From Eledone cirrhosa (taxonomy: Eukaryota): 64,000 nt of DNA. Made by a program: the position numbers and the translations under genes. The stretch lies in contig OZ024753.1 in NCBI GenBank assembly GCA_964016885.1, positions 14,260,001 through 14,324,000 on the forward strand. The letters are read 5' to 3'. Shown here in pieces: positions 7,602 through 57,581 of the stretch (position 1 is its first letter; each line of letters starts with the position of its first letter). Below the pieces are notes generated by a model. That model was not told the origin of the DNA. It ran no database searches and saw only the letters and a program-made list of their open reading frames with translations.

Positions 7602-7796
7602 GTTCGTGAGAAATCCAGTCAGTTGTCAGCCTATTTCAGTCTTATAGAGAACACTATCAAGTTTTTGGTAAGCAGTGAAGAAGGGCCTCCATTTGATCCC
7701 AACCAAATTATTCAACTATATTCAATCCTTACAGAGACACTCAAGTGTGTCATTTTATTTCTACAAGAGATAAATAAATCATTGCAGTCTTTCCAG
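7602..7796 (+). CDS. NCDN: NCDN exon 4 (VREKSSQLSAYFSLIE...LQSFQ)
   Basis: attgtag acceptor, cag|gtatgt donor, 195 nt, phase 0-0. Confidence 0.88.
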
Positions 7797-10700
7797 GTAT
7801 GTATTTAATGCGTGTGTATGTATTTATGTATATAACATATGTGTGTGTGTGAATATATGTACATGTGTGTGTATATATGCAGTCTTTCCAGGTATGTATA
7901 TAATGCGTGTGTATGTATTTATGTATATAACGTGTGTGTGTGTGTGTGAATATATGTACATGTGTGTGTATATATGCAGTCTTTCCAGGTATGTATATAA
8001 TGCGTGTGTATGTATTTATGTATATAACGTGTGTGTGTGTGTGTGAATATATGTACGTGTGTGTATATATGCAGTCTTTCCAGGTATGTATATAATGCGT
8101 GTGTATGTATTTATGTATATAACGTGTGTGTGTGAATATATGTACGTGTGTGTATATATGCAGTCTTTCCATGTATGTATATAATGCGTGTGTATGTATT
8201 TATGTATATAACATATATGTGTGTGTGTATATATGCAGTCTTTCCAGGTATGTATATAATTGTGTGTGTATGTATTTATGTATATAACGTGTGCGTGTGT
8301 GTGTGAATATATGTACATGTGTGTATATATGCAGTCTTTCCAGGTATGTATATAATGCATGTGTATGTATTTATGTATATAATGTGTGTGTGTGTGAATA
8401 TATGTACATGTGTGTATATATGCAGTCTTTCCAGGTATATATATAATTGTGTGTGTATGTATTTATGTATATAACGTGTGTGTGTAAATATATGTACATG
8501 TGTGTATATATGCAGTCTTTCCAGGTATGTATATAATGCGTGTGTATGTATTTATGTATGTATTTATGTATATAACGTGTGTGTGAATATATGTATGTGT
8601 GTATATATATATATGCAATCTTTCCAGGTATGTATATAATGCGTGTGTATGTATATATGTATATAACGTGTGTGTATGAATATATGTACGTGTGTGTATA
8701 TATGCAGTCTTTCCAGGTATGTATATAATGCGTGTGTATGTATTTATGTATATAACATGTGTGTGCGAATATATGTATGTGTGTATATATGCAGTCTTTC
8801 CAGGTGTGTATATAATGTGTGTGTATGTATTTATGTATATAACGTGTGTGTGTGAATATATGTACGTGTGTGTATATATGCAGTCTTTCCAGGTATGTAT
8901 ATAATGCATGTGTATGTATTTATGTATATAACGTGTGTGTGTGAATATATGTATGTGTGTATATATGCAGTCTTTCCAGGTATGTATATAATGTGTGTGA
9001 ATGTATTTATGTATATAACGTGTGTGTGTGAATATATGTACGTGTGTGTATATATGCAGTCTTTCCAGGTATGTATATAATGCGTGTGTATGTATTTATG
9101 TATATAATGTGTGTGTGAATATATGTATGTGTGTGTATATATGCAGTCTTTCCAGGTATGTATATAATGCGTGTGTATGTATTTATGTATGTATTTATGT
9201 ATATAACATATGTTTGTGTGTGAATATATCTACATGTGTGTATATATGCAGTCTTTCCAGGTATGTATATAATGCGTGTGTATGTATTTATGTATATAAC
9301 GTGTGTGTGTGAATATATGTACGTGTGTGTATATATACAGTCTTTCCAGGTATGTATATAATGCGTGTGTATGTATTTATGTATGTATTTATGTATATAA
9401 CATATGTTTGTGTGTGAATATATGTACATGTGTGTATACATGCAGTCTTTACAGGTATGTATATGATTGTGTGTGTATGTATTTATGTATATAACATATG
9501 TGTGTGTGTGAATATATGTACATGTGTGTGTATATATGCAGTCTTTCCAGGTATGTATATAATGCATGTGTATGTATTTATGTATATAACGTGTGTGTGT
9601 CAATATATGTACATGTGTGTGTATATATGCAGTCTTTCCAGGTATGTATATGATGCATGTGTATGTATTTATGTATGTATTTATATATATAATGTGTGGT
9701 GTGTGAATATATGTACATGTGTGTATATATATGCAGTCTTTCCAGGTATGTATATAATGCGTGTGTATGTATTTATGTATATAACGTGTGTGTGTGAATA
9801 TATGTATGTGTGTGTATATATGCAGTCTTTCCAGGTATGTATATAATGCGTGTGTATGTATTTATGTATATAACATATGTGTGTGAATATATGTACATGT
9901 GTGTATATATATGCAGTCTTTCCAGGTATGTATATAATGCGTGTGTATGTATTTATGTATATAACGTGTGTGTGTGAATATATGTATGTGTGTATATATG
10001 CAGTCTTTCCAGGTATGTATATAATGCGTGTGTATGTATTTATGTATGTATTTATGTATATAATGTGTGTGTGTGAATATATGTATGTGTGTGTATATAT
10101 GCAGTCTTTCCAAGTATGTATATAATGCGTGTGTATGTATTTATGTATATAACGTGTGTGAATATATGTACGTGTGTGTATATATGCAGTCTTTCCAGGT
10201 ATGTATATAATGCGTGTGTATGTATTTATGTATATAACATGTGTGTGCGAATATATGTATGTGTGTATATATGCAGTCTTTCCAGGTGTGTATATAATGT
10301 GTGTGTATGTATTTATGTATATAACGTGTGTGTGTGAATATATGTACGTGTGTGTATATATGCAGTCTTTCCAGGTATGTATATAATGCATGTGTATGTA
10401 TTTATGTATATAACGTGTGTGTGTGAATATATGTATGTGTATATATGCAGTCTTTCCAGGTATGTATATAATGTGTGTGAATGTATTTATGTATATAACG
10501 TGTGTGTGTGAATATATGTACGTGTGTGTATATATGCAGTCTTTCCAGGTATGTATATAATTGTGTGTGTGTATTTATGTATATAACGTGTGTGTGTGAA
10601 TATATGTACGTGTGTGTATATATGCAGTCTTTCCAGGTATGTATATAATTGTGTGTGTGTATTTATGTATGTATTTATGTATATAACGTATGTTTGTGTG

Positions 10701-11150
10701 TGAATATATGTACATGTGTGTATATATGCAGTCTTTCCAGGTATGTATATAATTGTGTGTGTGTATTTATGTATATAACGTGTGTGTGTGAATATATGTA
10801 CGTGTGTGTATATATGCAGTCTTTCCAGGTATGTATATAATTGTGTGTGTGTATTTATGTATGTATTTATGTATATAACATATGTTTGTGTGTGAATATA
10901 TGTACGTGTGTGTATATATGCAGTCTTTCCAGGTATGTATATAATTGTGTGTGTGTATTTATGTATATAACGTGTGTGTGTGAATATATGTACGTGTGTG
11001 TATATATGCAGTCTTTCCAGGTATGTATATAAATGTGTGTGTGTATTTATGTATATAACATGTGTGTGTGTGAATATATGTACGTGTGTGTATATATGCA
11101 GTCTTTCCAGGTATGTATATAATTGTGTGTGTGTATTTATGTATATGTCT
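7783..11150 (+). repeat. ~85-100-bp minisatellite beginning in NCDN exon 4 (unit contains tgcagtctttccag|gtatgt)
   Basis: About 37 copies read directly; explains the HTYI/VCVY ORFs. Confidence 0.95.
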
Positions 11151-11564: not shown

Positions 11565-12630
11565 ATGCTGTCAGTAAAGTGAGAGTAGGAATGGAGTTTA
11601 ATGAAGAATTCCAGATACAAGTAGGAGTACATCAGGGTTCGGTCCTCAGCCCGCTCTTGTTCATTATAGTCCTCCAAGCCATAACAGAGGAGTTTAAGAC
11701 TGGCTGTCCATGGGAACTTCTCTATGCTGACAATCTGGTTCTTATAGCAGAATCAGTAGAGGAGCTAGAGAATAAATTCTGGCTATGGAAACAGCAGTTG
11801 GAAGCAAGAGCACTGAGAGTGAACCTAGCTAAGACAAAAGTGTTGATGAGTAGAAAAGAGGACAAAACTCTGATTCCATCAGGGAAATGGCCATGTTCGA
11901 TATGAAGAAAAGGAACTGGTATAAATTCTATAAAATGTACGCAATGCAGATCTTGGGTACACGAGATGTAGTGGGATAGCAGGCAAACTAATAGGTAGGG
12001 AGAAATACGTATGGAGTAGATGTACAGGGAAATTAGACAGTAGTAATCGCAGTGATAGACACATTTTTCAAATGCAGGAGGGTTCTATAGAAGTGGTTGA
12101 TAGCTTCTGGTTCCTAGGTGATCAGATTAGCGTAGGAGGGGGGGGGGGGGGTATTCCGAGGCCATAGTATCTGGAATAAGGACAGGTTGGAAGAAGTTTA
12201 AGGAACTGCTTCCTCTGTTGACAAAAAAGGGTTTCCCCCTGCGTATGAAAGGCCTGCGATGGCTGGAGAGAAATGAAGCAAGCATGCTCCGTTGGATGTG
12301 CAATGTCAATGTGCGTGAACGACCAAGCATAGATGAGTTGAGAAAGAAACTGGGTATAAGAGGGATAAGTTGTAGTGTGCGGGAGAGAAGACTGCGATGG
12401 TATGGACATGTGATGCGCATTGAGGATGACTGCTGGGTAAAGAAATCCCAGTAGAACGAAGACGCAGTAGAGGAAGGCCACGAAAAACATGGGTGAGAAC
12501 AGACCTCAGATCACTGAAGCTCACGGTGGAGATGATGAAGGACCGTGACAAGTGGAGAGATGCTGTGCTGAATAGGACCCGTCCCACCCTTGCAAGCAGG
12601 GAAAAGCGGACGTAAAATGATGATGATGAT
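11565..12630 (+). mobile_element. 5'-truncated RTE LINE (RT 3' half to tail)
   Basis: GVHQGSVLSPLLF, LYADNL, GKWPC; (GAT)n tail; nearly identical to part of 18570-20390. Confidence 0.9.
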
Positions 12631-13815: not shown

Positions 13816-14365
13816 GGCAGTGAATTGGCAGTTAGAACATTAGACAGAACAATTTACAGTATCTGTTCAACCCATGCTAGTGTGGAAGATGGACATTAAA
13901 GGATGATGATGATGATGATTCTCCTCTCTCTGCTCTCCGAGTTCAAATCCCGCCCAGGTTAATTTTGTCTTTCATCCTTACAGGGTCGATGAAAAAATAT
14001 CAGTCCAGTGTTGATACGGACATGTGATGTGCATGATAGGGTTGGACAGGTCTATAGAGACAGTCAGTACTGAAGCAGGGCTACTGGTCTCCCAGGCCAG
14101 GGATCTGCATCTCACAACATACAGTTTCATTCATTCTACCAAGTGTACAGGAGAGGTTGTTATGTCTTTGATCCAACAAACAAGCATGGACGAGTTGAGA
14201 GTGAAACTGTGTTATAAGAGGGATAAACTGTAGTGTGCGGGAGAGAGGACTGCATTGGTATGGCTATGTGATGCGCATGGAAGATGACCACTGGGTGATG
14301 AAGTGCCAAGAAATCTCGGTGGAAGGAAGACACAGTAGAGGAAGACCATGGAAATCATGGGCGGA

Positions 14366-15044
14366 GCTAAGTATCAACATCTGTTGGTCTTACCTAACTG
14401 TCAACATCTGTTGGTCTTAGCTAAGTGTCAACACCTATTGGCCTTAGCTAACTGTCAACATCTGTTGGTGTTAGCTAACTGTCAACATCTGTTGATCTTA
14501 GCTAACTGTCAACATCTATTGGTCTTAGCTAAGTGTCAATATCTGTTGGTCTTAGCTAAGTGTCAACATATGTTGATCTTAGCTAAGTGTCAATATCTGT
14601 TGGTCTTAGCTAAGTGTCAATATCTGTTGGTCTTAGCTAAGTATCAACATCTGTTGGTCTTAGCTAAGTATCAACATCTGTTGGTCTTAGCTAAGTGTCA
14701 ACACCTATTGGGCTTAGCTAACTGTCAACATCTGTTGATCTTAGCTAACTGTCAACATCTGTTGGTCTTAGCTAAGTGTCAACATCTGTTGGTCTTAGCT
14801 AACTGTCAACATATGTTGTTCTTAGCTAAGTGTCAACATCTGTTGTTCTTAGCTAACTGTCAACATCTGTTGATCTTAGCTAACTGTCAATATCTGTTGG
14901 TCTTAGCTAAGTGTCAACATCTGTTGGTCTTAGCTAAGTGTCAACACCTATTGGTCTTAGCTAAGTGTCAACACCTATTGGTCTTAGCTAAGTGTCAACA
15001 TCTGTTGGTCTTAGCTAAGTGTCAACATCTGTTGGTCTTAGCTA
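14366..15044 (+). repeat. 27-bp satellite, ~25 copies (ttagctaa(g/c)tgtcaacatctgttggtc)
   Basis: Direct reading; the 9-aa QHLLVLAKC period in the ORF track. Confidence 0.95.
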
Positions 15045-15086
15045 CTTTTTTTCTAACAATGTATGTAAATATATTTGATATGGCAG

Positions 15087-15202
15087 GCTAGTGATCCTCT
15101 CTTGCAAGCATGTGTCCGACTGGTTGGTGTATGGATGAAAGAAGATAGTGAAGCTCTCAATGATGAGATCAATGATTTAGTGCCAGTCTTGCTGACATTC
15201 AG
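15087..15202 (+). CDS. NCDN: NCDN exon 5 (ASDPLLQACVRLVGVWMKEDSEALNDEINDLVPVLLTF)
   Basis: ggcag acceptor, ag|gtaaaa donor, phase 0-2; matches the neurochondrin motif 'A.VR.LG.WLAEE...L..E...LLP.L'. Confidence 0.92.
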
Positions 15203-15301
15203 GTAAAAAAACCTTTTATCACAGTCATTATACTTTGTCATTATCATAATAATTTAGCAGAAAATATCTAAAAGCTTGTTTGTTAATTCAAATGTTTATA
15301 G

Positions 15302-15447
15302 CAGGTATGGTCAACCTTTTTCGAGCAGTGGGCCGCATAGGGTGTGGCTTATCATATGATGGGCCACTTTACTAAAAAATTCAAGGCAATTTTGGAATTA
15401 GACGTGCCATTCAGAAAGCCAAACGGGCCGCAGTTTGCCCATGACTG
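15302..15447. mobile_element. hAT-type MITE
   Basis: Perfect 8-bp TSD gtttatag (15294-15301, 15448-15455); CAG...CTG termini. Confidence 0.85.
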
Positions 15448-15901
15448 GTTTATAGTATTTATAGTAGCTTATAAATAGGGTTTGCTTATTTCTCAGGCAT
15501 AAAATAGGGATGTGTCGGCTTATATTTGAGTATATACAGTACATCTGTTGAAAGTCTATTCATGTCTCCTCATAACCCTTTTGCTACCAAACTGCCCAAC
15601 ACTGACCCTGGTTCAATGGTACAAAACTGTTTGTTTTAAAGTATTTATATTTATCATTAAACTTTCTACCATAATTTTATGTAAGAAACCTTTGTTATCT
15701 TCTAAACACCAACATAACAATGAAAATCTGCCAAGTATATATGGTAGATAAAATTCTAAATCTCTCCAAATTCTTGATTTTATTTTTTTAAATGATTTGA
15801 AAGGCAGTCTTTCATTTGAAATATAGTAAGAAAAGGGTTAAAAACTAATATTGTAAGAAAGGGCATCTGAAGAAATTCTTATTTTAATTATATTTTTCTA
15901 G

Positions 15902-16106
15902 TAAAAACCTGCTGTGTACAGCTGAAGTTGAGAACCCCGTGGTGAGTTGTTCTGGTGTTCTATCCCCTCTTTTTGAAGGGTTCTGTCAACTGGCCTCCGA
16001 CACTAATGGCAGGGAACAGTTATTACAACATGAAGCTTACATCCCAGTTGCACAGTATTTGTTACACGCTCTTAGCCAGCTTCCACAGAAGGACGGCAAT
16101 ATTCTG
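15902..16106 (+). CDS. NCDN: NCDN exon 6 (KNLLCTAE...LFEGFCQLASDTNGREQLL...DGNIL)
   Basis: tttttctag acceptor, gtaagt donor, phase 2-0; matches 'LLPG.CHL......RE.L'. Confidence 0.9.
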
Positions 16107-16131
16107 GTAAGTTCTCATAGTTTATTAATAA

Positions 16132-16500
16132 CTAGCAGTGGTACCTGGCGTTGCACGGGGTAAGGTATTGTGAAATATATAACCGCCTTAGCTAAGCTTA
16201 GTATTGCCACAACCACGGCTGGCAAAGAAGTAAGGGTCTGGTGGTACGTAAGTAAGCAACACTGTGGCTTAAAACGTGAGGAAGAAGTTCTGTGCACTTA
16301 CCACCAACTGTTTGGGGAATGAGTGTGAGATTTGTCTTGAGCAAGGATGGCAGAATAACCAGAGACAGCAGACAGCCAGACATACAGACAGATATATTAT
16401 AAGGGCGCGTTCTGGACGCAGAGAGAATTGTAGGAAGTGACGTAATGCAGACAGCTAGACATACAGACAGATATTATAAGGGCGCGACGTTATATGTATG
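16132..16500 (-). mobile_element. Non-autonomous Helitron remnant; a related 3' end lies at 53693
   Basis: Minus-strand hairpin acccgtgcaacgccaggt followed by CTAG|T; 5' boundary uncertain. Confidence 0.55.
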
Positions 16501-17477
16501 TATCTATCTAAAAAGAGAAAGACTAAGAATTATAGAGAGAGATCGCTAAATCGCCTAATGTTGATTCATGACAAATAGGTAAAGGTGGACACAAATACAA
16601 AATTAACCCTTTACCATTTACATTACCCTATATATACTATTTTATTTTTGCGGTAAACATTTTATCTCACATAATATTGAATCTATGAGATTTAGATATT
16701 ATTTATTTTGAGAACAATAGCTTAACATCAGTATGAGTGGCCAGTTACAGCCAGTTTGAATAGAAAGAGGTGAGAGAATTCTGGCCGGATATGGCCGGTT
16801 TAAATAAATGCTAAAGGGTTAAATAAAGGTAGCGAGTTTGGTTTTTACATCTACCTCCCATCCTCTGATGACTGAATGCTGAAGCTGGCGCATTACTGCA
16901 CCAGTTCCTGCAATTCTTGCACCTAATTCAGCTTCCTGCCTTCCATCACTCGTGAACACAGATACAGAATGAAAGAGAGAAAATTTGGCTTTCACACCTA
17001 CCTCTGTTGACCACAGAATACTGAAGTTGCTGTACTACTGCATCAACTCCTGCATTTCTTCTACTTGAAATTGTTATAGATTTTATTGGAGGCACATGGC
17101 TTAGTGGTTAGAGCATTGGCCTTGCAATCGAAAGGTTGTGAGTTCAATTCTCAGACTGGGTGATGTGTTGTTTCCTTGAGCAAGACACTTTATTTCACAT
17201 TGTTCCAGTTTACTCAGCTGTAGAAATGAGATGATAGGGACTGGGGTCCCTATCATTCCACTGCAAAGTGGTCGTGGAGGTGCCACGGCGAAGAAGCACC
17301 CAGCCCACACTGTAAAGTGGTCTTGGAGGTGCCACGGCGAAAAAGCACCCAGCACTCACTCTAAATGAGGTTGGTGTTAGGAAGGGCATCCAGCTGTAGA
17401 AATCAAGCCAGAATCAGTTCCCGTCCCACCCTTGCAAGCAGGGAAAAGCAGACATAAAATGATGATGATGATGTTCT

Positions 17478-17690
17478 TGTTGTTATATGTAAATAATCCC
17501 AAGGTTGTTGTTATTATTATTGTGTTGTTATATGTAAATAATCCCAAGGTTGTTGTTATTACTGTTGTGTTGTTATATGTAAATAATCCCACGGTTGTTA
17601 TTACTGTTGTGTTGTTATATGTAAATAATACCAAGGTTGTTATTATTGTGTTGTTATATGTAAATAATACCAAGGTTGTTGTTATTTCCA
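17478..17690 (+). repeat. 39-45-bp tandem repeat x5 running into the NCDN exon 7 acceptor
   Basis: ttgttatatgtaaataat(c/a)cca(a/c)ggttgtt repeated. Confidence 0.9.
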
Positions 17691-17691
17691 G

Positions 17692-17815
17692 TTGTGTATC
17701 GAAAGCCTCTGTGATCTTCTATATCAACTGACTGAGACAGATGTTCAGTTCTTGGACTCAGACTCAATATATGTCTGTTTATTCAACAGACTAGCAGAAG
17801 TTCTACAAAATACTG
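17692..17815 (+). CDS. NCDN: NCDN exon 7 (LCIESLCDLLYQLTETD...VLQNT)
   Basis: tttccag acceptor, g|gtaagt donor, phase 0-1. Confidence 0.88.
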
Positions 17816-18569
17816 GTAAGTTTTTTAACAATTATTTTGTCCTACTTCTTCCAGGTCACTATATATCTATCGACAGTCGATTGACTTTCGTCAAATCGGA
17901 CCGAGGAAACAATGTTTTCATTGGTCTTTCCAATTGCTAATACTATCTATCGGTCACAACTCCAGGTAGAAGGAGCAACGTGAAATAAAGTGTCTTGCTC
18001 AAGGACATAACGCATCGCCCGGTCCAGGAATCAAACTCATAGCCTCAAGATTGCGAATCCAATTCTCAAGCCACTCAGCCATGCACCTTCACATATATAT
18101 ATATGTGAAGGTGTCACATATATATATATATATGTGAAGGTGTCACGACAAAAAGTACCCAGCACACTGTAAATGTGGTTGGCGTTAGGAAGTGCATTCA
18201 GCCATAGAAAGCCAGCCCCAAAACACCCAGCCCACACTGTAAAGTGGACGTGTAAAAGACACGGCAAAAAGCACCTAGCACACACTGTCAAGGAAGGGCA
18301 TCCAGCCGTAGAAAACCAGCCAGAAGCTCTCCTACTTGCTTCTAAATGGGACAAACCCGTCTAACCCATGCTAGCATGGAAGATAGATGTTAACCAACGA
18401 AGATGATATATACACATACATACACACAAACATATATATATGTTCTACTTGTAGAATGCATGAAGGAACAATTAGAAACCTGACTTCTTTCATCAGGTGT
18501 TTCAAGAAAATGTTTGTATTTAGTAGATGATGCTCAACTATGTTTATATAACATCAATGGCAGTGTGTC

Positions 18570-20390
18570 AGTGTAAATCAGGATGTTGTTGGAGATAAGT
18601 GTGTCCAAAATGATGCTGGTGTACTTAGTGTCACGAATAATCAGAAAAAGGAGGCCTGGAAATGTCATTATGAGAGACTGATGAATGTGAAGAATGAATG
18701 GAATGGAAGAGAGAGAAATTACCCCAGTAGACCCAAACTAGGGACCAGCTATTAAGATTGATGAATATAGGGTCCAAGAGGCAATTAAGGAAATGAAAAA
18801 TGGTAAGGCTGCTGGACTGTCGAAGATAGTTGCTGAGATGCTGAAGGCATCAGGGAACATAGGCACTAAACTCGTTGACGCATCATCAATCGGGCTATAT
18901 ATGGTGGTGTCATACGCAAAGACTGGTGCAGCAGTATTCTCATAAATCGCTACAAAGTTAAAGGGGATGCTCTGGAGAGGAGCAATTATAGGGGTATAAA
19001 ACTGATGGATCAGGTTATGAAAGTGGCAGAAAGGATATTAGCACAACTAATTAGAGAAAGGGTCAAACTAGATGAGATGCAGTTTGGTTTTGTGCCTGGG
19101 AAAAGTACAACAGATGCCCTCTTCTTGGTGAGACAATTACAAGAGAGGTTCTTAGAGAAAAATAAGCCAATATACTTAGCTTTTGTTAACTTAGAGAAGG
19201 CCTTTGATAGGGTACCCCAATCTGTCATCTGGTGGTCCCTAAGGAAACTAGGTGTAGAGGAATGGCTTGTGAGGACAGTGCAAGCTATGTACAGAGATGC
19301 TGTCAGTAAAGTGAGAGTAGGAATGGAGTTTAGTGAGGAATTCCAGATACAAGTAGGAGTACATCAGGGTTCGGTCCTCAGCCTGCTCTGGTTCATTATA
19401 GTCCTCCAAGCCATAACAGAGGAGTTTAAGATTAGCTGCCCATGGGAACTTCTCTATGCTGACGATCTGGTTCTTATAGCAGAATCAGTAGAGGGGCTAG
19501 AGAATAAATTCTGGCTATGGAAACAGCAGTTGGAATCAAGAGGCCTGAGAGTGAACATAGCTAAGACAAAAGTGTTGATGAGTAGAAAAGAGGACAAAAC
19601 TCTGATTCCGTCAGGGAAATGGCCATGTTAAATATATAGAAAAGGAACTGGCATAAATTCTATAAAATGTACACAATGCAGATCTTGAGTACACAAGAGA
19701 TGTAGTCGGATAGCAGGCAAACTAACAGGTAGGGAAAATATGCAGTAGATGTACAGGGAAATATGACAGTAGGGTCGCAATGATAGACACATTTTTCAAA
19801 TGCAGGTGGATTCTATAGAAGTGGTTGATAGCTTCCGGTACCTAGGTGATCAGATTAGCATGGGAGAGGGGGTGTTCCTAGAATAAGGACGGGTTGGAAG
19901 AAGTTTAGGGAGCTGCTTCCTCTGTTGACAAAGAAGGGTTTCTCCCTGCGTATGAAAGGCCTGTTATATGATGCCTGTGTGAGATGCGCGATGCTGTATG
20001 GTAGTGAGACATGGACAGCAACTATAGAGGATATGCGACAGGTGGAGAGATATGAGGCAAGCATGCTCTGTTGGATGTGCGTGAATGACCAAGCATAGAT
20101 GAGTTGAGAGAGAAACTGGGTAAAAGAGGGATAAGTTGTAGTCTACAGGAGAGAAGACTTGAGATGGTATGAACATGTAATGCGTATGGAGGATGACCGC
20201 TGGGTAAAGAAGTGCCAAGAAATCCCAGTTGAAGGAAGACATAGTAGAGGAAGACCACTAAAAGCATGGGCGGAGGTGGTGAGAACAGACCTCAAATCGC
20301 TGAAGCTCACAGAGGAGATGACCAAGGACCATGACAAGTGGAGAGATGCAAGCAGGTAAAACCGGATGTAAAATGATGAGGATGATGATG
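18570..20390 (+). mobile_element. RTE LINE, degenerate RT with Cys-rich (PHD-like) insert and 3' tail
   Basis: NYRGIKL, QFGFVPGKST, FVNLEKAFD, HQGSVLS, YADD; stops and frameshifts. Confidence 0.93.
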
Positions 20391-21064
20391 AATGGCCTTT
20401 CATGATATTGTGAGATTTAGTATATTGAATAAATGATGAAATATGGGAGATAACTTCAAAAGTACCAAGCAATGAAACAACCATAACAAACATTTTAAGT
20501 CTAATTTCTTGGCTAAAGCATGACGGCCTTCTCCATTTTGTTTTATCATCTGATTCCCTCTTCACAAATCCCTGGCTTTCATCTCCTTCTTTCATCTTCA
20601 GCCATGTCTATCTTGGTCTTCCTTTACTTTCTTCTACATTCATTTCTATCTCTTCTTTTGTCACCTTGATCCTTCCTAAACACATGACCTAGCCATCTCA
20701 TTACAAAAAAGGACCTCATAATGAGTATATAACATGTACCAAACTCGAGGAAAAAAATTTTTAAGGTTACTTCCTATTGTCTTCAATCTTTTACTTTACT
20801 TCACTGCGGGGTTTTTTTTCTGTCTTATTACCTTGGCATTTTTACCAAATAAGGATTGTTGGGCTTCCAAATAAACAAACGTATTGTATGTTTGTATTTG
20901 CATTTCATATCATCATCATCGTTTAACATCCATTTTCCACGTTACCATGGGTTAAACGGGTTGTCCCATTAGAGGCAAGTCGAGTCAGGTGACCATGTCT
21001 TGTTCATATGTAACTGTTTCTGGCTACGTTTCTATAGCTGGATGCCCTTCCTAACACCAACCAC

Positions 21065-21890
21065 ATTTACAGTGTGGATTGGGTGCTTTTTATTGTGACA
21101 GCTACATGACCACTTTATAGTGTGGACTGGGTGCTTTTTGTTGTGACACCTACAAGACCAATTTACAGTGTGGGCTGGGTGCTTTTTGTTGTGACACCTA
21201 CATGACCAATTTACAGTGTGGGCTGGGTGCTTTTTGTTGTGACACCTACATGACCAATTTACAGTGTGGGCTGGGTGCTTTTTGTTGTGACACCTACACT
21301 TACCCAATTACACCTCTCAAAGGCGATGACACGCGACCGTGACCTCTGGCGTCACGCAGTAATACAGAGTACCCGACCTCCCATGGGTACAAGCTGAAGC
21401 AATAGACAATATGCCCCACACCCTCCCACTGCAAAATGGTCGTGGAGGTGCCACGGCAAAAAAGCACCCAGCCCACACTGTAAAGTGGACGTGTAGGCGC
21501 CACAGAAAAAAGCACCCAGCACTCATTGTAAATGAGGTTGGTGTTAGGAAGGGCATCCAGCCGTAGAAATCAAGCCAGAATCAGTTCCTGTATGAGCAAG
21601 GCATGGTCAGCCGACCAGACACTGCCCACAACAGGACAACTCGTCTAACCCATGCTAGCATGGAAGAACGGATGTAAAACGGTGATGATGATGATGATGA
21701 CCTACATGACCAATTTACAGTGTGGACTGGGTGCTTTTTGTTGTGACACCTACATGACCACTTTAGAGTATGGAATGGGTTTTTTTTATTGTGACACCTA
21801 CATGACCACTTTATAGTGTGGAATGGGTGCTTTTTATTGTGACACCTACATGACCAATTTATAGTGTGGACTGGGTGCTTTTTGTTGTGT
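21065..21890. repeat. 48-bp SINE-derived tandem array interrupted by a SINE insertion
   Basis: cagtgtgggctgggtgctttttgttgtgacacctacatgacc units on both sides of 21300-21700. Confidence 0.8.
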
Positions 21891-21985
21891 AAGGGTGGTA
21901 TGGACAGAAATGGGTGGGTATGTATATATTTATATCTCTCTATCTAACTATCTATATATTTTTTTATCTATGTTTCTTCTTACAG

Positions 21986-22069
21986 TTTTTGAAATAGAAT
22001 GTCTAAATGTTGTTGCTGTGATGTCACTCCTTGGTCTAACACTTTTTAACTCACATCATTTGACAACAG
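21986..22069 (+). CDS. NCDN: NCDN exon 8 (VFEIECLNVVAVMSLLGLTLFNSHHLTT)
   Basis: ttcttacag acceptor, ag|gtaagt donor, phase 1-1; matches the 'LGL' helix. Confidence 0.88.
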
Positions 22070-22209
22070 GTAAGTTGCTCCCCTTCTCATGTGAACACTT
22101 TAAACTGATTACCATCACAGACTTCTCTATTGAACACAACTAATTACCATCACAGTCTTCTTTATTGAACACAACTGATTCCTCTTAGGCCCAGTTTTTC
22201 TTTCAACAT

Positions 22210-23261
22210 TTAGCTAAGGCATATAGATGTTGACAGTTAGTTAAGACTCATGGATCTTGACATATTAGCTAAGACCAACAGATGTTGACAGTTAGCTAAG
22301 ACCAATAGATGTTGACAGTTAGCTAAGACCAATAGATGTTGACAGTTAGCTAAGACCAATAGATGTTGACAGTTAGCTAAGACCAACAGATGTTGACACT
22401 TAGCTAAGACCAATATATGTTGACACAACACTTAGCTAAGACCAATAGATGTTGACACTTAGCTAAGACCAATAGATGTTGACAGTTAGCTAAGACCAAT
22501 AGATGTTGACAGTTAGCTAAGACCAACAGATGTTGACACTTAGCTAATACCAATATATGTTGACACGACACTTAGCTAAGACCAATAGATGTTGACAGTT
22601 AGCTAAGACCAACAGATATTGACACTTAGCTAAGACCAATAGATGTTGACACTTAGCTAAGACCAATAGATGTTGACAGTTAGCTAAGACCAACAGATGT
22701 TGACACTTAGCTTAGACCAATAGATGTTGACACTTAGCTAAGACCAATAGATGTTGACAGTTAGCTAAGACCAACAGATGTTGACACTTAGCTAAGACCA
22801 ATAGATGTTGACAGTTAGCTAAGACCAATAGATGTTGACAGTTAGCTAAGACCAACAGATGTTGACAGTTAGCTAAGACCAATAGATGTTGACAGTTAGC
22901 TAAGACCAATAGATGTTGACAGTTAGCTAAGACCAACAGATGTTGACAGTTAGCTAAGACCAATAGATGTTGACAGTTAGCTAAGACCAATAGATGTTGA
23001 CAGTTAGCTAAGACCAATAGATGTTGACAGTTAGCTAAGACCAATAGATGTTGACACTTAGCTAAGACCAATAGATGTTGACAGTTAGCTAAGACCAATA
23101 GATGTTGACAGTTAGCTAAGACCAAACATATGTTGACAGTTAGTTAAGACCAATAGATGTTGACAATTAGCTAAGACCAAACATATGTTGACAGTTAGCT
23201 AAGACCAATAGATGTTGACTAAGACCAAACATATGTTGACACATTAGCTAAGACCAACAGA
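22210..23261 (-). repeat. Same 27-bp satellite in reverse orientation, ~38 copies
   Basis: ttagctaagaccaa(c/t)agatgttgaca(g/c) is the reverse complement of the 14366-15044 unit. Confidence 0.95.
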
Positions 23262-26179: not shown

Positions 26180-26350
26180 AAGTGGAAGAAACTAAACAAA
26201 GAACCTTGCTAAAATCAACAATAACATTTCTCAGTAGGGCCCATCTTTTAGACTGTCAAGGGGGTCGAAAGGGCAAGCTGTTGGTCATTAGTGAAGACTA
26301 TAGTGCCCAATGGGACTCTATATCTGGTTATTGGCTGTCCACTATGAAAG
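26180..26350 (+). CDS. NCDN: NCDN exon 9 (EVEETKQR...FLSRAH...SEDYSAQWDSISGYWLSTMK)
   Basis: ttctatag acceptor, ag|gtaacc donor, phase 1-1; matches 'FLSQSH ... Y...W..L...W...M'. Confidence 0.92.
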
Positions 26351-27184
26351 GTAACCTCCACATCTTTATTTGTCATCATTTCAACTCTTTTTTTTACCCG
26401 ATTTTTAATGAAAGACACTGCCTATTTTTTTTCAAATAATTTTGAAGCTAGATTCTTATAGAATTCCAGTTATGTTTAATAGCTGTTGAAACAACGGTTG
26501 CTGGGCCAGCAAAAATTAGGAATTAGTATTGGTGTTATGAAATAAACATACAGTATATTATCAAATATACTGTATGTTTATTTCAGAACAACAATATTAT
26601 CAAATATACTATACATACATTCATGTATACATCGCTATTTCAGAGCACCAATACTAATTCCTAATTTTTGCTGGGCCGGCAACTTCTCTGTTTAAACACC
26701 TCTTAAACATAACTGGAATTATGTAAAAATCTAGCTTCTATAACTCTCAGCAAAAGCAAAGGGGTATGTAGTCTTGACAACCACTTATGAGTGAGAAATG
26801 ATGACCGTTGATTACTCCCCTTTGCTTTTGTCAAGACTAAGTGACGTAGTCACTACTTTAAAATTCATAGTGAATGATCTTGAAAATGTTTTTAATTAAA
26901 CATACAGTATATTATCAAATATTCTATACATACATTCAATTTTGGAAATAATCACGAATTTAGAAGGATTTATTCATATAACTAACTTCCTTATTGTTAA
27001 CTCTTTTGTTAGTGTATTTCTAATGAAATACACTGCCAGAAATTTTCAAATAATTTTTAACATAATCATAAGTTTTTTGAGATTTGATAATATAACTAAC
27101 TTTTTCTTATAAGACGGTAAGGTGAGATTTGAGGGAGATTTAGCTGCTGTTTCCATCAGAATTCCATGATTTGACTCACTAGAC

Positions 27185-30791: not shown

Positions 30792-30916
30792 TACACTGGA
30801 AGGTAATATCCGTAGTGGTAGAGCACTCAGTCCATGGGACGAGTTAGATAGAAGTGGTTACACAACAGTTAGTTCACCATACCGAGAACAATTGTTTCAC
30901 CTTAGAGGATCCATTA

Positions 30917-30954
30917 CGAGCTGAGGATCCGCTAAGGTGAAACAATTGTTCTCG
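30917..30954 (+). ncRNA. Minimal type I hammerhead motif
   Basis: cgag-CTGAGGA-tcc gctaa ggt-GAAAC aatt GTT-ctcg; palindromic stem III. Confidence 0.62.
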
Positions 30955-31228
30955 GTATGGTGAACTAACTGTTGTGTAACCACTTCTATATATATCGAAA
31001 CCGGTAAAGGAACCAAATAAATATATATATTTTTTTTAAAAATAAGACTCCAGTTGCATTTTCGATTTCATCTCTTTTTCTTTATACTTTCACTCGTGTA
31101 GGACACCTCGGTTATTTTTCATTTTGTAAAAAAAACCTCACTTTCTAATATATATATATATAAATATAAAATCTCCTACAGTAATACTAATGCCGGATTC
31201 GAAATTGTTTTGTTTCTCTCTTCTAAAG

Positions 31229-44850: not shown

Positions 44851-47800
44851 CTGAAAAACAGAGAATAAGGAGGTGCTGACCAGTGACCAATGAAAGACAG
44901 AGAATAAGGAGGTACTGACCAGTGACCAATGATAGACAGAGAATAAGGAGGTACTGACCAGTGACCAATGAAAGGCATGGCATAAGGAGGTGCTGACCAG
45001 TGACCAATGATAGACAGAGAATAAGGAGGTACTGACCAGTGACCAATGAAAGGCATGGCATAAGGAGGTGCTGACCAGTGACCAATGATAGACAGAGAAT
45101 AAGGAGGTGCTGACCAGTGACCAATGATAGACAGAGAATAAGGAGGTACTGACCAGTGACCAATGAAAGGCATGGCATAAGGAGGTGCTGACCAGTGACC
45201 AATGATAGACAGAGAATAAGGAGGTGCTGACCAGTGACCAATGAAAGGCATGGCATAAGGAGGTGCTGACCAGTGACCAATGAAAGGCATGGCATAAGGA
45301 GGTGCTGACCAGTGACCAATGAAAGGCATGGCATAAGGAGGTGCTGACCAGTGACCAATGAAAGACAGAGAATAAGGAGGTGCTGACCAGTGACCAATGA
45401 TAGACAGAGAATAAGGAGGTACTGACCAGTGACCAATGAAAGGCATGGCATAAGGAGGTGCTGACCAGTGACCAATGAAAGGCATGGCATAAGGAGGTGC
45501 TGACCAGTGACCAATGAAAGACAGAGAATAAGGAGATGCTGACCAGTGACCAATGATAGACAGAGAATAAGGAGGTACTGACCAGTGACCAATGATAGAC
45601 AAAGAATAAGGAGGTACTGACCAGTGACCAATGAAAGGCATGGCATAAGGAGGTGCTGACCAGTGACCAATGAAAGGCATGGCATAAGGAGGTGCTGACC
45701 AGTGACCAATGAAAGGCATGGCATAAGGAGGTACTGACCAGTGACCAATGAAAGACAGAGAATAAGGAGGTGCTGACCAGTGACCAATGATAGACAGAGA
45801 ATAAGGAGGTACTGACCAGTGACCAATGATAGACAGAGAATAAGGAGGTACTGACCAGTGACCAATGAAAGGCATGGCATAAGGAGGTGCTGACCAGTGA
45901 CCAATGAAAGGCATGGCATAAGGAGGTGCTGACCAGTGACCAATGAAAGAGAGAATAAGGAGGTACTGACCAGTGACCAATGAAAGGCATGGCATAAGGA
46001 GGTGCTGACCAGTGACCAATGAAAGGCATGGCATAAGGAGGTGCTGACCAGTGACCAATGAAAGGCATGGCATAAGGAGGTGCTGACCAGTGACCAATGA
46101 AAGAGAGAATAAGGAGGTGCTGACCAGTGACCAATGATAGACAGAGAATAAGGAGGTACTGACCAGTGACCAATGATAGACAGAGAATAAGGAGGTACTG
46201 ACCAGTGACCAATGATAGACAGAGAATAAGGAGGTACTGACCAGTGACCAATGATAGACAGAGAATAAGGAGGTACTGACCAGTGACCAATGATAGACAG
46301 AGAATAAGGAGGTACTGACCAGTGACCAATGAAAGGCATGGCATAAGGAGGTGCTGACCAGTGACCAATGAAAGAGAGAATAAGGAGGTGCTGACCAGTG
46401 ACCAATGATAGACAGAGAATAAGGAGGTACTGACCAGTGACCAATGATAGACAGAGAATAAGGAGGTACTGACCAGTGACCAATGATAGACAGAGAATAA
46501 GGAGGTACTGACCAGTGACCAATGATAGACAGAGAATAAGGAGGTACTGACCAGTGACCAATGATAGACAGAGAATAAGGAGGTACTGACCAGTGACCAA
46601 TGAAAGGCATGGCATAAGGAGGTGCTGACCAGTGACCAATGATAGACAGAGAATAAGGAGGTACTGACCAGTGACCAATGAAAGGCATGGCATAAGGAGG
46701 TGCTGACCAGTGACCAATGATAGACAGAGAATAAGGAGGTACTGACCAGTGACCAATGAAAGGCATGGCATAAGGAGGTACTGACCAGTGACCAATGATA
46801 GACAGAGAATAAGGAGGTGCTGACCAGTGACCAATGAAAGGCATGGCATAAGGAGGTGCTGACCAGTGACCAATGAAAGGCATGGCATAAGGAGGTACTG
46901 ACCAGTGACCAATGATAGACAGAGAATAAGGAGGTACTGACCAGTGACCAATGATAGACAGAGAATAAGGAGGTACTGACCAGTGACCAATGAAAGGCAT
47001 GGCATAAGGAGGTGCTGACCAGTGACCAATGAAAGGCATGGCATAAGGAGGTGCTGACCAGTGACCAATGAAAGGCATGGCATAAGGAGGTGCTGACCAG
47101 TGACCAATGAAAGAGAGAATAAGGAGGTGCTGACCAGTGACCAATGATAGACAGAATAAGGAGGTACTGACCAGTGACCAATGAAAGGCATGGCATAAGG
47201 AGGTGCTGACCAGTGACCAATGAAAGGCATGGCATAAGGAGGTGCTGACCAGTGACCAATGAAAGAGAGAATAAGGAGGTGCTGACCAGTGACCAATGAT
47301 AGACAGAATAAGGAGGTACTGACCAGTGACCAATGAAAGGCATGGCATAAGGAGGTGCTGACCAGTGACCAATGAAAGGCATGGCATAAGGAGGTGCTGA
47401 CCAGTGACCAATGATAGACAGAGAATAAGGAGGTACTGACCAGTGACCAATGAAAGGCATGGCATAAGGAGGTGCTGACCAGTGACCAATGATAGACAGA
47501 GAATAAGGAGGTACTGACCAGTGACCAATGAAAGGCATGGCATAAGGAGGTGCTGACCAGTGACCAATGAAAGGCATGGCATAAGGAGGTGCTGACCAGT
47601 GACCAATGATAGACAGAGAATAAGGAGGTACTGACCAGTGACCAATGAAAGGCATGGCATAAGGAGGTGCTGACCAGTGACCAATGATAGACAGAGAATA
47701 AGGAGGTGCTGACCAGTGACCAATGAAAGACAGAGAATAAGGAGGTACTGACCAGTGACCAATGAAAGGCATGGCATAAGGAGGTGCTGACCAGTGACCA

Positions 47801-47986
47801 ATGATAGACAGAGAATAAGGAGGTGCTGACCAGTGACCAATGAAAGACAGAGAATAAGGAGGTACTGACCAGTGACCAATGATAGACAGAGAATAAGGAG
47901 GTACTGACCAGTGACCAATGAAAGGCATGGCATAAGGAGGTACTGACCAGTGACCAATGAAAGGCATGGCATAAGGAGGTACTAAC
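44851..47986 (-). repeat. 39-bp (some 37-bp) satellite, ~80 copies, forming the whole of LRRC23 intron 4
   Basis: 13-aa periodic ORFs; array begins at the donor GT and ends at the acceptor AG. Confidence 0.95.
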
Positions 47987-48111
47987 CAGTGAAAGTGTTG
48001 TCAGACTTGGTATGTTGATTTTTTCAATATACTCAAGAAGATTTGATGAAGCTTTGAGAGTTGTGAGATGAGGAGATCCCTTTAACTGGGACAGGTCCCT
48101 GATTTTATTGC
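47987..48111 (-). CDS. LRRC23: LRRC23 exon 4 (GNKIRDLSQLKGSPHLTTLKASSNLLEYIEKINIPSLTTLSL); not in the ORF track
   Basis: ccattccag acceptor, ctg|gttagt donor, phase 1-0; two LRR units. Confidence 0.9.
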
Positions 48112-49117: not shown

Positions 49118-49374
49118 CACTGATGTCAATAAACTTAATAATTGGGTGAGTTAATCCCTCAGAAATGTCCACAATCCTGTTAGAACCAAGGGAAATATAC
49201 TGTAAATAGGAATGGGCCTCAAGAGCAATTTTTTCAATGCTGTTTCTGTCTGCTTTCAGGAATAATAAATTTGGCAAGAAGTTGAGAGGACTTAGATCTG
49301 TGAATTGGTTGTGACTAATATCAACAATTCTCAAATGGATATATTTCTCCAGAATGTTGAAACTGTTGAGTTCC
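49118..49374 (-). CDS. LRRC23: LRRC23 exon 3 (ELNSFNILEKYIHLRIVDISHNQFTDLSPLN...KFIDIS), proximal acceptor
   Basis: ttcccag acceptor, g|gtaagt donor, phase 2-1; matches 'YIHLRYVDIS.N.LTDLSPLN.L..LL.LKAD.N'. Confidence 0.93.
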
Positions 49375-50372
49375 CTGGGAAATAAGAGAGGTAGATATAA
49401 ATTGATATATTTCTCCAGAATGTTGAGTTCCCTGGCAAATAAAAGAGGTAGATATAAATTAATATATTTCTCCAGAATGTTGAGTTCCCTGGGAAATAAG
49501 AGAGGTAGATATAAATTGATATATTTCTCCAGAATGTTGAAACTGGTGAGTTCCCTGGGAAATAAAAGAGGTAGATATGAATAGATATATTTCTCCAGAA
49601 TGTTGAGTTCCCTGGGAAATAAGAGAGGTAGATATAAATTGATATATTTCTCCAGAATGTTGAGTTCCCTGGGAAATAAAAGAGGTAGATATGAATAGAT
49701 ATATTTCTCCAGAATTTTGAGTTCCCTGGGAAACAAGAGAGGTAGATATAAATTGATATATTTCTCCAGAATGTTGAAACTGTTGAGTTCCCTGGGAAAT
49801 AAAAGAGGTAGATATGAATAGATATATTTCTCCAGAATTTTGAGTTCCCTGGGAAACAAGAGAGGTAGATATAAATTGATATATTTCTCCAGAATGTTGA
49901 AACTGTTGAGTTCCCTGGGAAATAAAAGAGGTAGATATAAATTGATATATTTCTCCAGAATGTTGAGTTCCCTGGGAAATAAAAGAGGTAGATATGAATA
50001 GATATATTTCTCCAGAATTTTGAGTTCCCTGGGAAACAAGAGAGGTAGATATAAATTGATATATTTCTCCAGAATGTTGAAACTGGTGAGTTCCCTGGGA
50101 AATAAAAGAGGTAGATATGAATTGATATATTTCTCCAGAATGTTGAGTTCCCTGGGAAATAAGAGAGGTAGATATAAATTGATATATTTTTCCAGAATGT
50201 TGAAACTGGTGAGTTCCCTGGGAAATAAAAGAGGTAGATATGAATTGATATATTTCTCCAGAATGTTGAGTTCCCTGGGAAATAAGAGAGGTAGATATAA
50301 ATTGATATATTTTTCCAGAATGTTGAAACTGGTGAGTTCCCTGGGAAATAAAAGAGGTAGATATAAATTGAT
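49375..50372 (-). repeat. 57/66-bp tandem copies of the LRRC23 exon 3 acceptor + exon start
   Basis: ttccctgg recurs 17 times between 49371 and 50337. Confidence 0.95.
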
Positions 50373-51057: not shown

Positions 51058-51845
51058 CCACCTTATAGAGTAGACTGGATGTTGTGAGACCTATACGACC
51101 ACCTTATAGAGTGGACTGGGTGGCTTTTGTTGTGAGACCTATACGACCACCTTATAGAGTGGACTGGGTGGCTTTTGTTGTGAGACCTATACGACCACCT
51201 TATAGAGTGGACTGGCTGGCTTTTGTTGCGAGACCTATACGACCACCTTATAGAGTGGACTGGCTGGCTTTTGTTGCGAGACATACACGACCACCTTATA
51301 GAGTGGACTGGCTGGCTTTTGTTGCGAGACCTATACGACCACCTTATAGAGTGGACTGGCTGGCTTTTGTTGCGAGACATACACGACCACCTTATAGAGT
51401 GGACTGGCTGGCTTTTGTTGTGAGACCTATACGACCACCTTATAGAGTGGACTGGCTGGCTTTTGTTGCGAGACCTATACGACCACCTTATAGAGTGGAC
51501 TGGGTGGCTTTTGTTGCGAGACCTATACGACCACCTTATAGAGTGGACTGGCTGGCTTTTGTTGCGAGACCTATACGACCACCTTATAGAGTGGACTGGC
51601 TGGCTTTTGTTGCGAGACCTATACGACCACCTTATAGAGTGGACTGGCTGGCTTTTGTTGCGAGACCTATACGACCACCTTATAGAGTGGACTGGCTGGC
51701 TTTTGTTGCGAGACCTATACGACCACCTTATAGAGTGGACTGGCTGGCTTTTGTTGTGAGATCTATACGACCACCTTATAGAGTGGACTGGCTGGCTTTT
51801 ATTGTGAGACCTATACGACCACCTTATAGAGTGGACTGGGTGGAT
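51058..51845. repeat. 48-bp SINE-derived satellite, ~16 copies
   Basis: ccaccttatagagtggactggctggcttttgttgcgagacctatacga. Confidence 0.93.
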
Positions 51846-56571: not shown

Positions 56572-57581
56572 TGTCACTCTAATAGTCCCCCAAACAAGAG
56601 ACATGGCCAGCCCATCTATATTTGCTCTTCTTGGTAGTCTCCTCTGTCACTCTAATAGTACCCCTGTTGTCCTCCAAACAAGAGACATGGCCAGCCCATC
56701 TATATTTGCTCTTCTTGATGGTCTCCTCTGTCACTCTAATAGTCCCCCAAACAAGAGACATGGCCAGCCCATCTATATTTGCTCTTCTTGATAGTCTCCT
56801 CTGTCACTCTAATAGTCCCCCTGTTGTCCTCCAAACAAGAGACATGGCCAGCCCATCTATATTTGCTCTTCTTGATAGTCTCCTCTGTCACTCTAATAGT
56901 CCCCCTGTTGTCCTCCAAACAAGAGACATGGCCAGCCCATCTATATTTGCTCTTCTTGATAGTCTCCTCTGTCACTCTAATAGTCCCCCTGTTGTCCTCC
57001 AAACAAGAGACATGGCCAGCCCATCTATATTTGTTCTTCTTGGTCGTCTCCTCTGTCACTCTAATAGTCCCCCTGTTGTCTCTCAAACAAGAGACATGGC
57101 CAGCCCATCTATATTTGCTCTTCTTGATGGTCTCCTCTGTCACTCTAATAGTCCCCCTGTTGTCTCTCAAACAAGAGACATGGCCAGCCCATCTATATTT
57201 GCGCTTCTTGATGGTCTCCTCTGTCACTCTAATAGTCCCCCTGTTGTCCCCCAAACAAGAGACATGGCCAGCCCATCTATATTTGCTCTTCTTGATAGTC
57301 TCCTCTGTCACTCTAATAGTCCCCCTGTTGTCCTCCAAACAAGAGACATGGCCAGCCCATCTATATTTGCTCTTCTTGATAGTCTCCTCTGTCACTCTAA
57401 TAGTCCCCCTGTTGTCCTCCAAACAAGAGACATGGCCAGCCCATCTATATTTGCTCTTCTTGATGGTCTCCTCTGTCACTCTAATCGTCCCCCTGTTGTC
57501 TCTCAAAGAAGAGACATGGCCAGCCCATCTATATTTGCGCTTCTTTATGGTCTCCTCTGTCACTCTAATAGTCCCCCTGTT
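56572..57581 (-). repeat. 84-bp satellite, ~12 copies, derived from an RTE ORF C-terminus
   Basis: 28-aa period KYRWAGHVSCLEDNRGTIRVTEE; flanked by RT remnants. Confidence 0.9.

What the first reader, a model, noticed from the sequence alone, without database searches (positions are those of the whole stretch)
14366..23261. Opposite-orientation 27-mer arrays tightly bracket NCDN exons 5-8 (circRNA / dsRNA geometry)
Seen: a ~25-copy array ends ~42 nt before the exon 5 acceptor, and the reverse-complement ~38-copy array starts ~140 nt after the exon 8 donor. I found the unit nowhere else in the window. They could form ~680 bp of duplex in many registers. Known: flanking reverse-complementary intronic repeats drive back-splicing and are ADAR substrates, and coleoid cephalopods edit neural RNA heavily. 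Inference: a 529-nt circle (116+205+124+84); skipping these exons would frameshift the linear mRNA. The unit is quasi-palindromic (ttagctaa; caaca-tc-tgttg), so intra-array folding could compete, and many units contain a CTAAC branch-point-like motif.
Basis: partly seen in the sequence, partly recalled or inferred. Interest (0 to 1): 0.75.

Follow-up and report, generated by a model that had tools for sequence, protein, structure and literature searches.

The report
Private inverted minisatellites bracket octopus exons
In an octopus neurochondrin gene, two mirror-image arrays of a 27-base repeat, likely found only at this locus, sit just outside a block of four exons and are predicted to pair in the pre-mRNA, which would likely invite RNA editing and a little circular RNA as an accidental by-product, though neither has been seen.

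Summary
Observation confirmed. Arrays at 14365-15044 (25 units) and 22206-~23245 (37-38 units, reverse complement, ~92% complementary) lie 42 nt before and 136 nt after four neurochondrin exons (529 nt); skipping them frameshifts. New result: in a DNA-like run, contig depth on the array ends (62,000 depth-nt) matches what these two arrays alone predict (54,000-71,000), and two RAD runs agree, so the 27-mer is likely private to this locus rather than a dispersed family. The arrays share 4 polymorphic positions and are as alike between as within, so one was likely copied from the other; the left one starts at a broken RTE-LINE end with 2-nt microhomology. Against a designed device: 5 of 8 other minisatellites in this gene also hug exons; each array folds on itself; the one RNA-like run gives one 2,246-nt spliced contig of full-mRNA length and no signal on the left array. 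Back-splicing and editing were not testable. Best reading: an accidental, locus-private inverted pair predicted to form long dsRNA, with low-level circle and editing as likely by-products.

The parts
14365..15044 (+). Left 27-mer array (A), 25.2 units, intron 4 (in-window numbering); self-folds into a long imperfect hairpin; ends 42 nt before the acceptor
22206..23245 (-). Right 27-mer array (B), 37-38 units in reverse complement, degenerate edges (to ~23260), intron 8; starts 136 nt after the donor
14181..14366 (+). RTE-like LINE 3' fragment, cut off exactly where array A starts (2-nt AG overlap)
22145..22207 (-). Old antisense RTE-like remnant (looser match from ~22100) abutting the inner edge of array B
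   Evidence: E 9e-8; 0/200 shuffles for each of 5 RTE copies
15053..15057 (+). CTAAC branch-point candidate outside the array, predicted unpaired
15087..15202 (+). Neurochondrin exon 5 (116 nt); acceptor of the predicted back-splice
   Evidence: RNA-like depth 16.6
15902..16106 (+). Neurochondrin exon 6 (205 nt)
17692..17815 (+). Neurochondrin exon 7 (124 nt)
21986..22069 (+). Neurochondrin exon 8 (84 nt); donor of the predicted back-splice
7602..7796 (+). Exon 4, upstream partner in a skipping event (ends in phase 0)
26180..26350 (+). Exon 9, downstream partner in a skipping event (phase 1; premature stop 30 nt in)

Best explanation
Two inverted 27-mer arrays, likely private to this neurochondrin locus and likely made by one being copied from the other into a DNA break, are predicted to form long double-stranded RNA in the pre-mRNA and would likely yield editing in the arrays and a low-level 529-nt circle as unselected by-products. 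Shown: arrays, orientation, exon structure, frameshift on skipping, shared unit variants, RTE junctions, linear spliced transcript. Inferred steps: (1) a quasi-palindromic 27-mer amplified in place at the broken end of an old RTE remnant (the right array has ragged edges); (2) a multi-unit tract was copied in reverse orientation into a break that cut off an RTE fragment 7 kb upstream (microhomology-mediated template switch, from DNA or from the gene's own pre-mRNA, which would also give an inverted copy); (3) both arrays kept changing length; (4) in the transcript, array A first folds on itself, and when intron 4 is still present as array B emerges 7.2 kb later the more stable A:B duplex can form and bring the exon 8 donor near the exon 5 acceptor; (5) ADAR editing and ordinary splicing keep circle and exon skipping minor, so the linear mRNA dominates.
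For: Private origin: X1 depth summed on the two array-bearing bins 62,482 depth-nt vs 54,157-71,206 simulated from these two arrays alone at the 5.4-7.1 depth of neighbouring unique contigs, while dispersed repeats in the same introns reach 1e4-2e6; in RAD runs X5 and X6 the left-array bin is the lowest of 30 bins (0.87, 1.11). Copying: 4 of the 11 variable unit positions are polymorphic for the same two bases in both arrays; mean unit distance between arrays 2.30, within A 2.48, within B 1.20 (24 and 30 units of 27 nt). Junction: RTE match stops at 14366 and the array takes over with an AG overlap. Templated, inverted insertions through microhomology are a documented repair outcome in yeast (PMC11724301, abstract only). 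dsRNA: cofold 647 inter-arm pairs, longest unbroken helix 65 bp; self-fold of A z = -24. By-product: exon-hugging is general here; record 9 of run X4 (2,246 nt, depth 16.6) joins exons 6 and 7 and its length fits the whole linear coding sequence (1,179 nt upstream vs 1,176 expected); octopus circRNAs are few and low (296 high-quality; PMC9699675 passages and supplement); mammalian circRNA-forming repeat dimers showed no sign of special selection (PMC8516420 passages); cephalopod editing is widespread in intronic and repetitive RNA (PMC9068888 passages).
Against: No back-splice read and no edited array read was seen; the joint table showed 15 of 1,723 rows, all from dispersed repeats, so it is blind here. 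The tool warns that summed contig depth is not a copy number; my estimate rests on a rough unitig simulation, one low-depth run that may be the assembly's own sample, only about 3 units of each array end, and a 90% likeness cut, so a few extra or diverged arrays are not excluded. Direction of copying is unsettled (A is internally more diverse than B). Three of the four shared variants (unit positions 5, 8, 10) lie in the unit's palindrome and could recur independently. Repeat pairing does not guarantee circles: stability is not a good predictor and G-U wobbles can inhibit (PMC4201285 passages); the cofold has 19 G-U pairs among 647. No ortholog intron from another octopod was available.
Confidence: 0.5

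Rival explanations
1. The pair is inert across the exons: each array folds on itself and intron 4 is spliced out before array B is transcribed, so no cross-exon duplex, circle or skipping occurs; at most the self-hairpins are edited.
For: Self-folds -297 and -347 kcal/mol; 7.2 kb between arms; branch point and acceptor predicted unpaired (0.92-1.0); X4 depth in the left-array bin (7.87) is what exon 5 alone gives (7.80), and its contig is of full linear length.
Against: The A:B duplex is far more stable (-1107 vs -643 summed) with helices up to 65 bp against 10-11 bp in the self-folds; X4 is shallow, of unrecorded library type, and contigs drop rare forms.
Confidence: 0.25
2. A selected regulatory device: the private inverted pair makes an abundant neural circle and shunts the rest of the transcript (exon 4 joined to exon 9) to nonsense-mediated decay, with ADAR editing or array length as the dial for neurochondrin dose.
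For: Top RCM of the gene, tight on both sides, low copy, high identity between arms; skipping gives a stop 30 nt into exon 9 with three junctions downstream.
Against: No expression evidence; unrelated arrays hug exons too; G-U-compatible differences (35% sense vs 23% antisense) come mostly from one site and are not evidence of selection; circle reading frame stops just past the junction; the duplex contains no coding sequence, so it would not direct recoding.
Confidence: 0.1
3. The pair is the scar of an inversion with staggered breaks that later flipped back, and still acts at DNA level as inverted repeats that can invert exons 5-8 by recombination.
For: Inverted duplicates at both ends of a segment are the expected product of staggered-break inversions (recalled); arms are ~92% identical over 680 nt.
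Against: Needs two events through a null allele; the missing RTE tail is not found inside array A; X1 contigs run exactly from each array into the exon side in the assembled orientation (15015-15339, 21861-22294), which does not test the outer junctions.
Confidence: 0.08
4. The arrays are ends or copies of a dispersed element (Foldback-type transposon with tandem subterminal repeats, or a genome-wide minisatellite family) that landed twice by chance.
For: Tandem units in inverted orientation resemble Foldback arms (recalled); both arrays abut RTE pieces.
Against: Depth fits two arrays only; outer ends share no terminal sequence and no target duplication is visible (by inspection); the enclosed exons are collinear with the rest of the gene.
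Confidence: 0.07

Closest known systems
Alu/SINE reverse-complementary matches driving exonic circRNA (ZKSCAN1, HIPK3, EPHB4; PMC4201285, passages read)
   Same: Inverted complementary sequence in the two introns flanking an exon block, close to the splice sites
   Different: Here the arms are tandem arrays of a likely locus-private 27-mer, pair in many registers and also fold on themselves; no circle has been shown
Mouse Sry circular RNA locus (as described in PMC4201285, passages read)
   Same: Locus-specific long inverted repeat around exonic sequence
   Different: Sry arms exceed 15 kb around one exon and the circle is demonstrated; here 0.7/1.0-kb minisatellites inside introns of a multi-exon gene
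Repeat-directed A-to-I editing in coleoid introns (PMC9068888, PMC9699675, passages read)
   Same: Long intronic dsRNA in a coleoid transcript
   Different: Editing not observed here; substrate is a private minisatellite, not an annotated transposon
Templated inverted insertions at double-strand breaks (PMC11724301, abstract read)
   Same: Inverted copy of nearby sequence at a junction with microhomology
   Different: Shown in yeast, mostly 5-34 bp; here inferred from one allele, multi-unit, 7 kb away
Foldback transposons (recalled, no call)
   Same: Inverted arms built of tandem repeats
   Different: No shared termini, no visible target duplication, not multicopy, interior is the host gene

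Membership tests
RCM-driven exonic circRNA locus | Reverse-complementary sequences in both flanking introns | tested here: met
RCM-driven exonic circRNA locus | Canonical acceptor and donor at the ends of the block | tested here: met
   AG/GT; branch-point candidate
RCM-driven exonic circRNA locus | Arms pair with each other in the cell | tested here: inconclusive
   Favoured by energy but self-folds compete; prediction only
RCM-driven exonic circRNA locus | Back-splice junction present in RNA | tested here: inconclusive
   15 of 1,723 joints shown, none relevant; one shallow contig set of unknown library type gives a linear-length contig
RCM-driven exonic circRNA locus | RNase R resistance and dependence on the repeats | not testable with these tools
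   needs bench work
ADAR hyper-edited dsRNA | Long intramolecular duplex | tested here: met
   predicted:
ADAR hyper-edited dsRNA | Clustered A-to-G changes in RNA but not DNA | tested here: inconclusive
   X4 has essentially no depth on the left array end and 2.33 on the right bin; the two X4 exon differences listed (15131, 15938) are synonymous and not A>G
Dispersed satellite or minisatellite family | Many loci in the genome | tested here: not met
   (indirect, depth-based); no whole genome held
Foldback-type transposon | Shared terminal inverted sequence and target-site duplication | tested here: not met
   flanks inspected
Foldback-type transposon | Multiple genomic copies | tested here: not met
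Neurochondrin (PF05536) | Sequence homology along the family profile | tested here: met
   12 window exons match P0002/P0003 by tblastn; P0003 hits PF05536 at 3.3e-100; the 68-aa exon 6 piece alone had no Pfam hit

The most novel reading that the evidence does not exclude
A gene-private, self-made RCM: a minisatellite born in one intron was copied in reverse into another intron of the same gene, possibly from the gene's own pre-mRNA, creating a length-variable duplex that sets the split between neurochondrin mRNA and circle plus decay product, gated by ADAR. If octopod genomes hold many such private inverted pairs next to splice sites, they would be a transposon-independent source of new circRNA and editing substrates.
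Probability: 0.1. Interest if true: 0.8.

Novelty: new variant of a known kind. Interest (0 to 1): 0.42.

Why it matters
Known RCM pairs come mostly from abundant transposons, where inverted pairs are expected by chance. A pair built from a repeat that seems to exist only here must have been made locally, so it is a clean natural test of how new back-splicing and editing substrates arise, of whether self-folding arms or cross-exon pairing wins, and of whether heavy coleoid ADAR activity protects genes from such accidents. One divergent RT-PCR answers the first question. If no circle or editing is found it is a curiosity of repeat evolution. The wider pattern, minisatellites clustering at exon edges in this gene, is unexplained and may matter more.

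Tried and rejected
No whole genome held, so no direct genome-wide scan and no ortholog introns. No run on record as RNA was listed (7 runs; 'no RNA holder listed' is no evidence on expression); I laid 4 of the 7 (X4, X1, X5, X6), not X2, X3, X7, and only on 14965-22345, so exon 4-to-9 skipping, the outer junctions and the array bodies were not examined. Tables were swamped by dispersed repeats (754 differences, 1,708 joints, 9,250 loose ends not shown). Origin of the unit from an RTE coding stretch near 11800/19560: score 38, reached by 17 of 300 shuffled units, rejected. Origin from the RTE segment collinear with B's inner edge: 1 of 10 comparisons at p 0.0025 (edge unit vs an AT-rich stretch), one at 0.05, the rest not significant; not shown. 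B's outer flank does not match RTE (5 of 5 copies at shuffle level). G-U bias as a sign of selection: driven by one site, rejected. Rolling translation of the circle: every frame has stops. Unit pattern in metagenome contigs: 0 matches. Earlier findings: 5 look-ups, nothing. Literature: no paper holding minisatellite + inverted orientation + intron + circular RNA; listings showed no such case in an octopus or for neurochondrin (listings only; the library lacks most subscription papers). Ivanov 2015 not held. Data files S1-S4 of PMC9699675 were cut and not seen, so an octopus neurochondrin circle could be listed there; 'neurochondrin' and 'NCDN' had 0 hits in the PDF supplement and tables. For the exon-hugging count I kept arrays of period 20 or more and 150 bp or more in the gene span and left out low-complexity and shorter ones; with 7 of these added the count is 8 of 17 (expected 2.0, 8/20,000).
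Full report
Observation. Tandem Repeats Finder gives two period-27 arrays, 14365-15044 (25.2 copies) and 22206-23219 (37.1 copies, ragged to about 23260). The second is the reverse complement of the first: 90-93% complementary over up to 559 ungapped bases in many registers. The unit has no other match in the window at up to 7 mismatches. The gene is neurochondrin of an octopod other than the two named hits: exon 6 is 88% identical to O. vulgaris and O. bimaculoides proteins, and 12 in-window exons with AG/GT ends give one open frame. The bracketed exons total 529 nt; the gaps to the arrays are 42 and 136 nt; skipping all four puts a stop 30 nt into exon 9.

Is the unit dispersed? In run X1 (contigs, DNA-like, possibly the assembly's own sample) unique contigs beside the arrays have depth 5.4-7.2, dispersed repeats in the same introns 1e4-2e6, and the two bins with array ends 98.6 and 174.9. 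A simulation of k=31 unitigs from these two arrays alone predicts 91-120 and 145-191 (summed 54,157-71,206 against 62,482 observed). In two RAD runs of other samples the left-array bin is the lowest of 30 (0.87, 1.11). The tool warns that summed contig depth is not a copy number, and diverged copies under 90% would be missed, so this is indirect; but it argues that the 27-mer is confined to this locus or nearly so. That removes the dullest explanation, two chance hits of a common repeat, and requires a local origin.

Origin. The arrays are not differentiated: mean unit distance 2.30 between, 2.48 within A, 1.20 within B, and 4 of 11 variable positions carry the same two bases in both (24 and 30 regular units). 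This points to copying of a multi-unit tract or later exchange, though three of the four sites lie in the unit's palindrome and might recur. Array A begins exactly where an RTE-like LINE fragment (14181-14366) stops, with a 2-nt overlap, and the LINE tail is absent on the other side. Array B has degenerate edges and abuts an old antisense RTE remnant. I infer that B arose in place and A is a templated insertion at a break; A's higher diversity leaves the direction open. A template switch on DNA gives an inverted copy (yeast precedent, PMC11724301, abstract only); so would extension of the sense strand on the gene's own pre-mRNA (my inference; one search gave listings only). Attempts to derive the unit itself from RTE sequence did not pass controls.

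RNA consequences. The A:B duplex is predicted at -1107 kcal/mol, with 647 inter-arm pairs and helices up to 65 bp, against -297 and -347 for the self-folds, whose helices reach 10-11 bp. It is the strongest of 34 inverted matches among 66 intron pairs. Each arm is therefore a predicted ADAR substrate alone, and together they have RCM geometry. But A is made 7.2 kb before B, folds first, and leaves branch point and acceptor open, so ordinary splicing may remove it before B exists. Published minigene work shows that duplex stability predicts circles poorly and that G-U pairs can inhibit them (PMC4201285, passages). The duplex holds no coding sequence, so it would not direct recoding.

Expression data. 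Run X4 is not on record as RNA but behaves as RNA: record 9 (2,246 nt, depth 16.6) joins exon 7 to exon 6 without the intron; the same depth appears in exon 5; and the remaining length (1,179 nt upstream, 538 downstream) fits the full coding sequence plus about 100 nt of UTR (1,176 and 437 expected). Only two pieces of that record were printed, so its exon 4/5 and 8/9 joins are inferred from arithmetic. An unbroken contig argues weakly against a circle or skip at a level near the linear form in that sample; it says nothing on rare forms, and library type and tissue are unknown. Depth in the left-array bin equals exon 5 alone (7.87 vs 7.80), so editing could not be tested. The joint table (15 of 1,723 rows) was filled by dispersed repeats.

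How special is the tight bracketing? Random placement would put both arrays within 150 nt on the inner side in 0.36% of trials. But 7 of 10 minisatellites in this gene lie within 150 nt of an exon (expected 1.2), 5 of 8 without the 27-mers (expected 0.94), including an 89-mer array that repeats the exon 4 donor 31 times. Closeness to splice sites is thus a local habit of arrays, not a mark of design.

Comparison. It would work like an Alu- or Sry-type RCM; membership among circRNA loci is unproven because the defining junction was not seen. It fails the tests for a dispersed satellite and for a Foldback element. Octopus circRNAs are reported as low and few, with most editing in introns and UTRs (PMC9699675, passages and PDF supplement; PMC9068888, passages); in mammals, circle-forming repeat dimers are young and showed no special selection (PMC8516420, passages). 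My searches found no paper on a private inverted minisatellite pair as an RCM (listings only, open-licence library).

Verdict. Real, well-formed and likely locus-private; most likely an accident of repair and repeat expansion with predicted dsRNA and minor RNA by-products (0.5); inert across exons 0.25; selected device 0.10; inversion scar 0.08; dispersed element 0.07. New variant of a known kind; interest 0.42; cheap to settle.

Noticed in passing
window 7783-11144: An 85-105-nt tandem array starts inside exon 4 and repeats its last bases plus the splice donor 31 times, giving a 3.3-kb run of spare 5' splice sites.
   Followed up: partly
window 4247-29517 (gene span): Unrelated minisatellites cluster at exon edges: 7 of 10 within 150 nt (expected 1.2); e.g. 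45-mer ends 5 nt before exon 7, 77-mer starts 20 nt after exon 10. Cause unexplained.
   Followed up: partly
window 14360, 29195, 12490: The same spot in the RTE 3' region (around CATGGGCGGAGGTGG) is where array A takes over in one copy, where an 80-bp tandem array starts in a second, and where a third has a small deletion; possibly a fragile site.
   Followed up: no
P0002 vs P0003: The O. vulgaris protein model lacks about 43 residues of exon 4 that O. bimaculoides and this species have; alternative donor or annotation error.
   Followed up: no
window 14365-15044: Each unit ends in a pyrimidine-leaning run plus TAG about 23 nt after a CTAAC in 9 units, so the array carries possible cryptic acceptors that folding might mask; not scored.
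   Followed up: no
window 15131 and 15938: Two differences between the RNA-like run X4 and the window, both synonymous third positions.
   Followed up: yes
window 44852-47992, 49333-50372, 51080-51843, 56585-57581: Further long minisatellites (39-mer x81, 57/123-mer, 48-mer x16, 84-mer x12) downstream of the gene.
   Followed up: no
window 26444-26738 and 30845-30992: Self-complementary (palindromic) elements of about 300 and 150 nt in introns 9 and 10.
   Followed up: no
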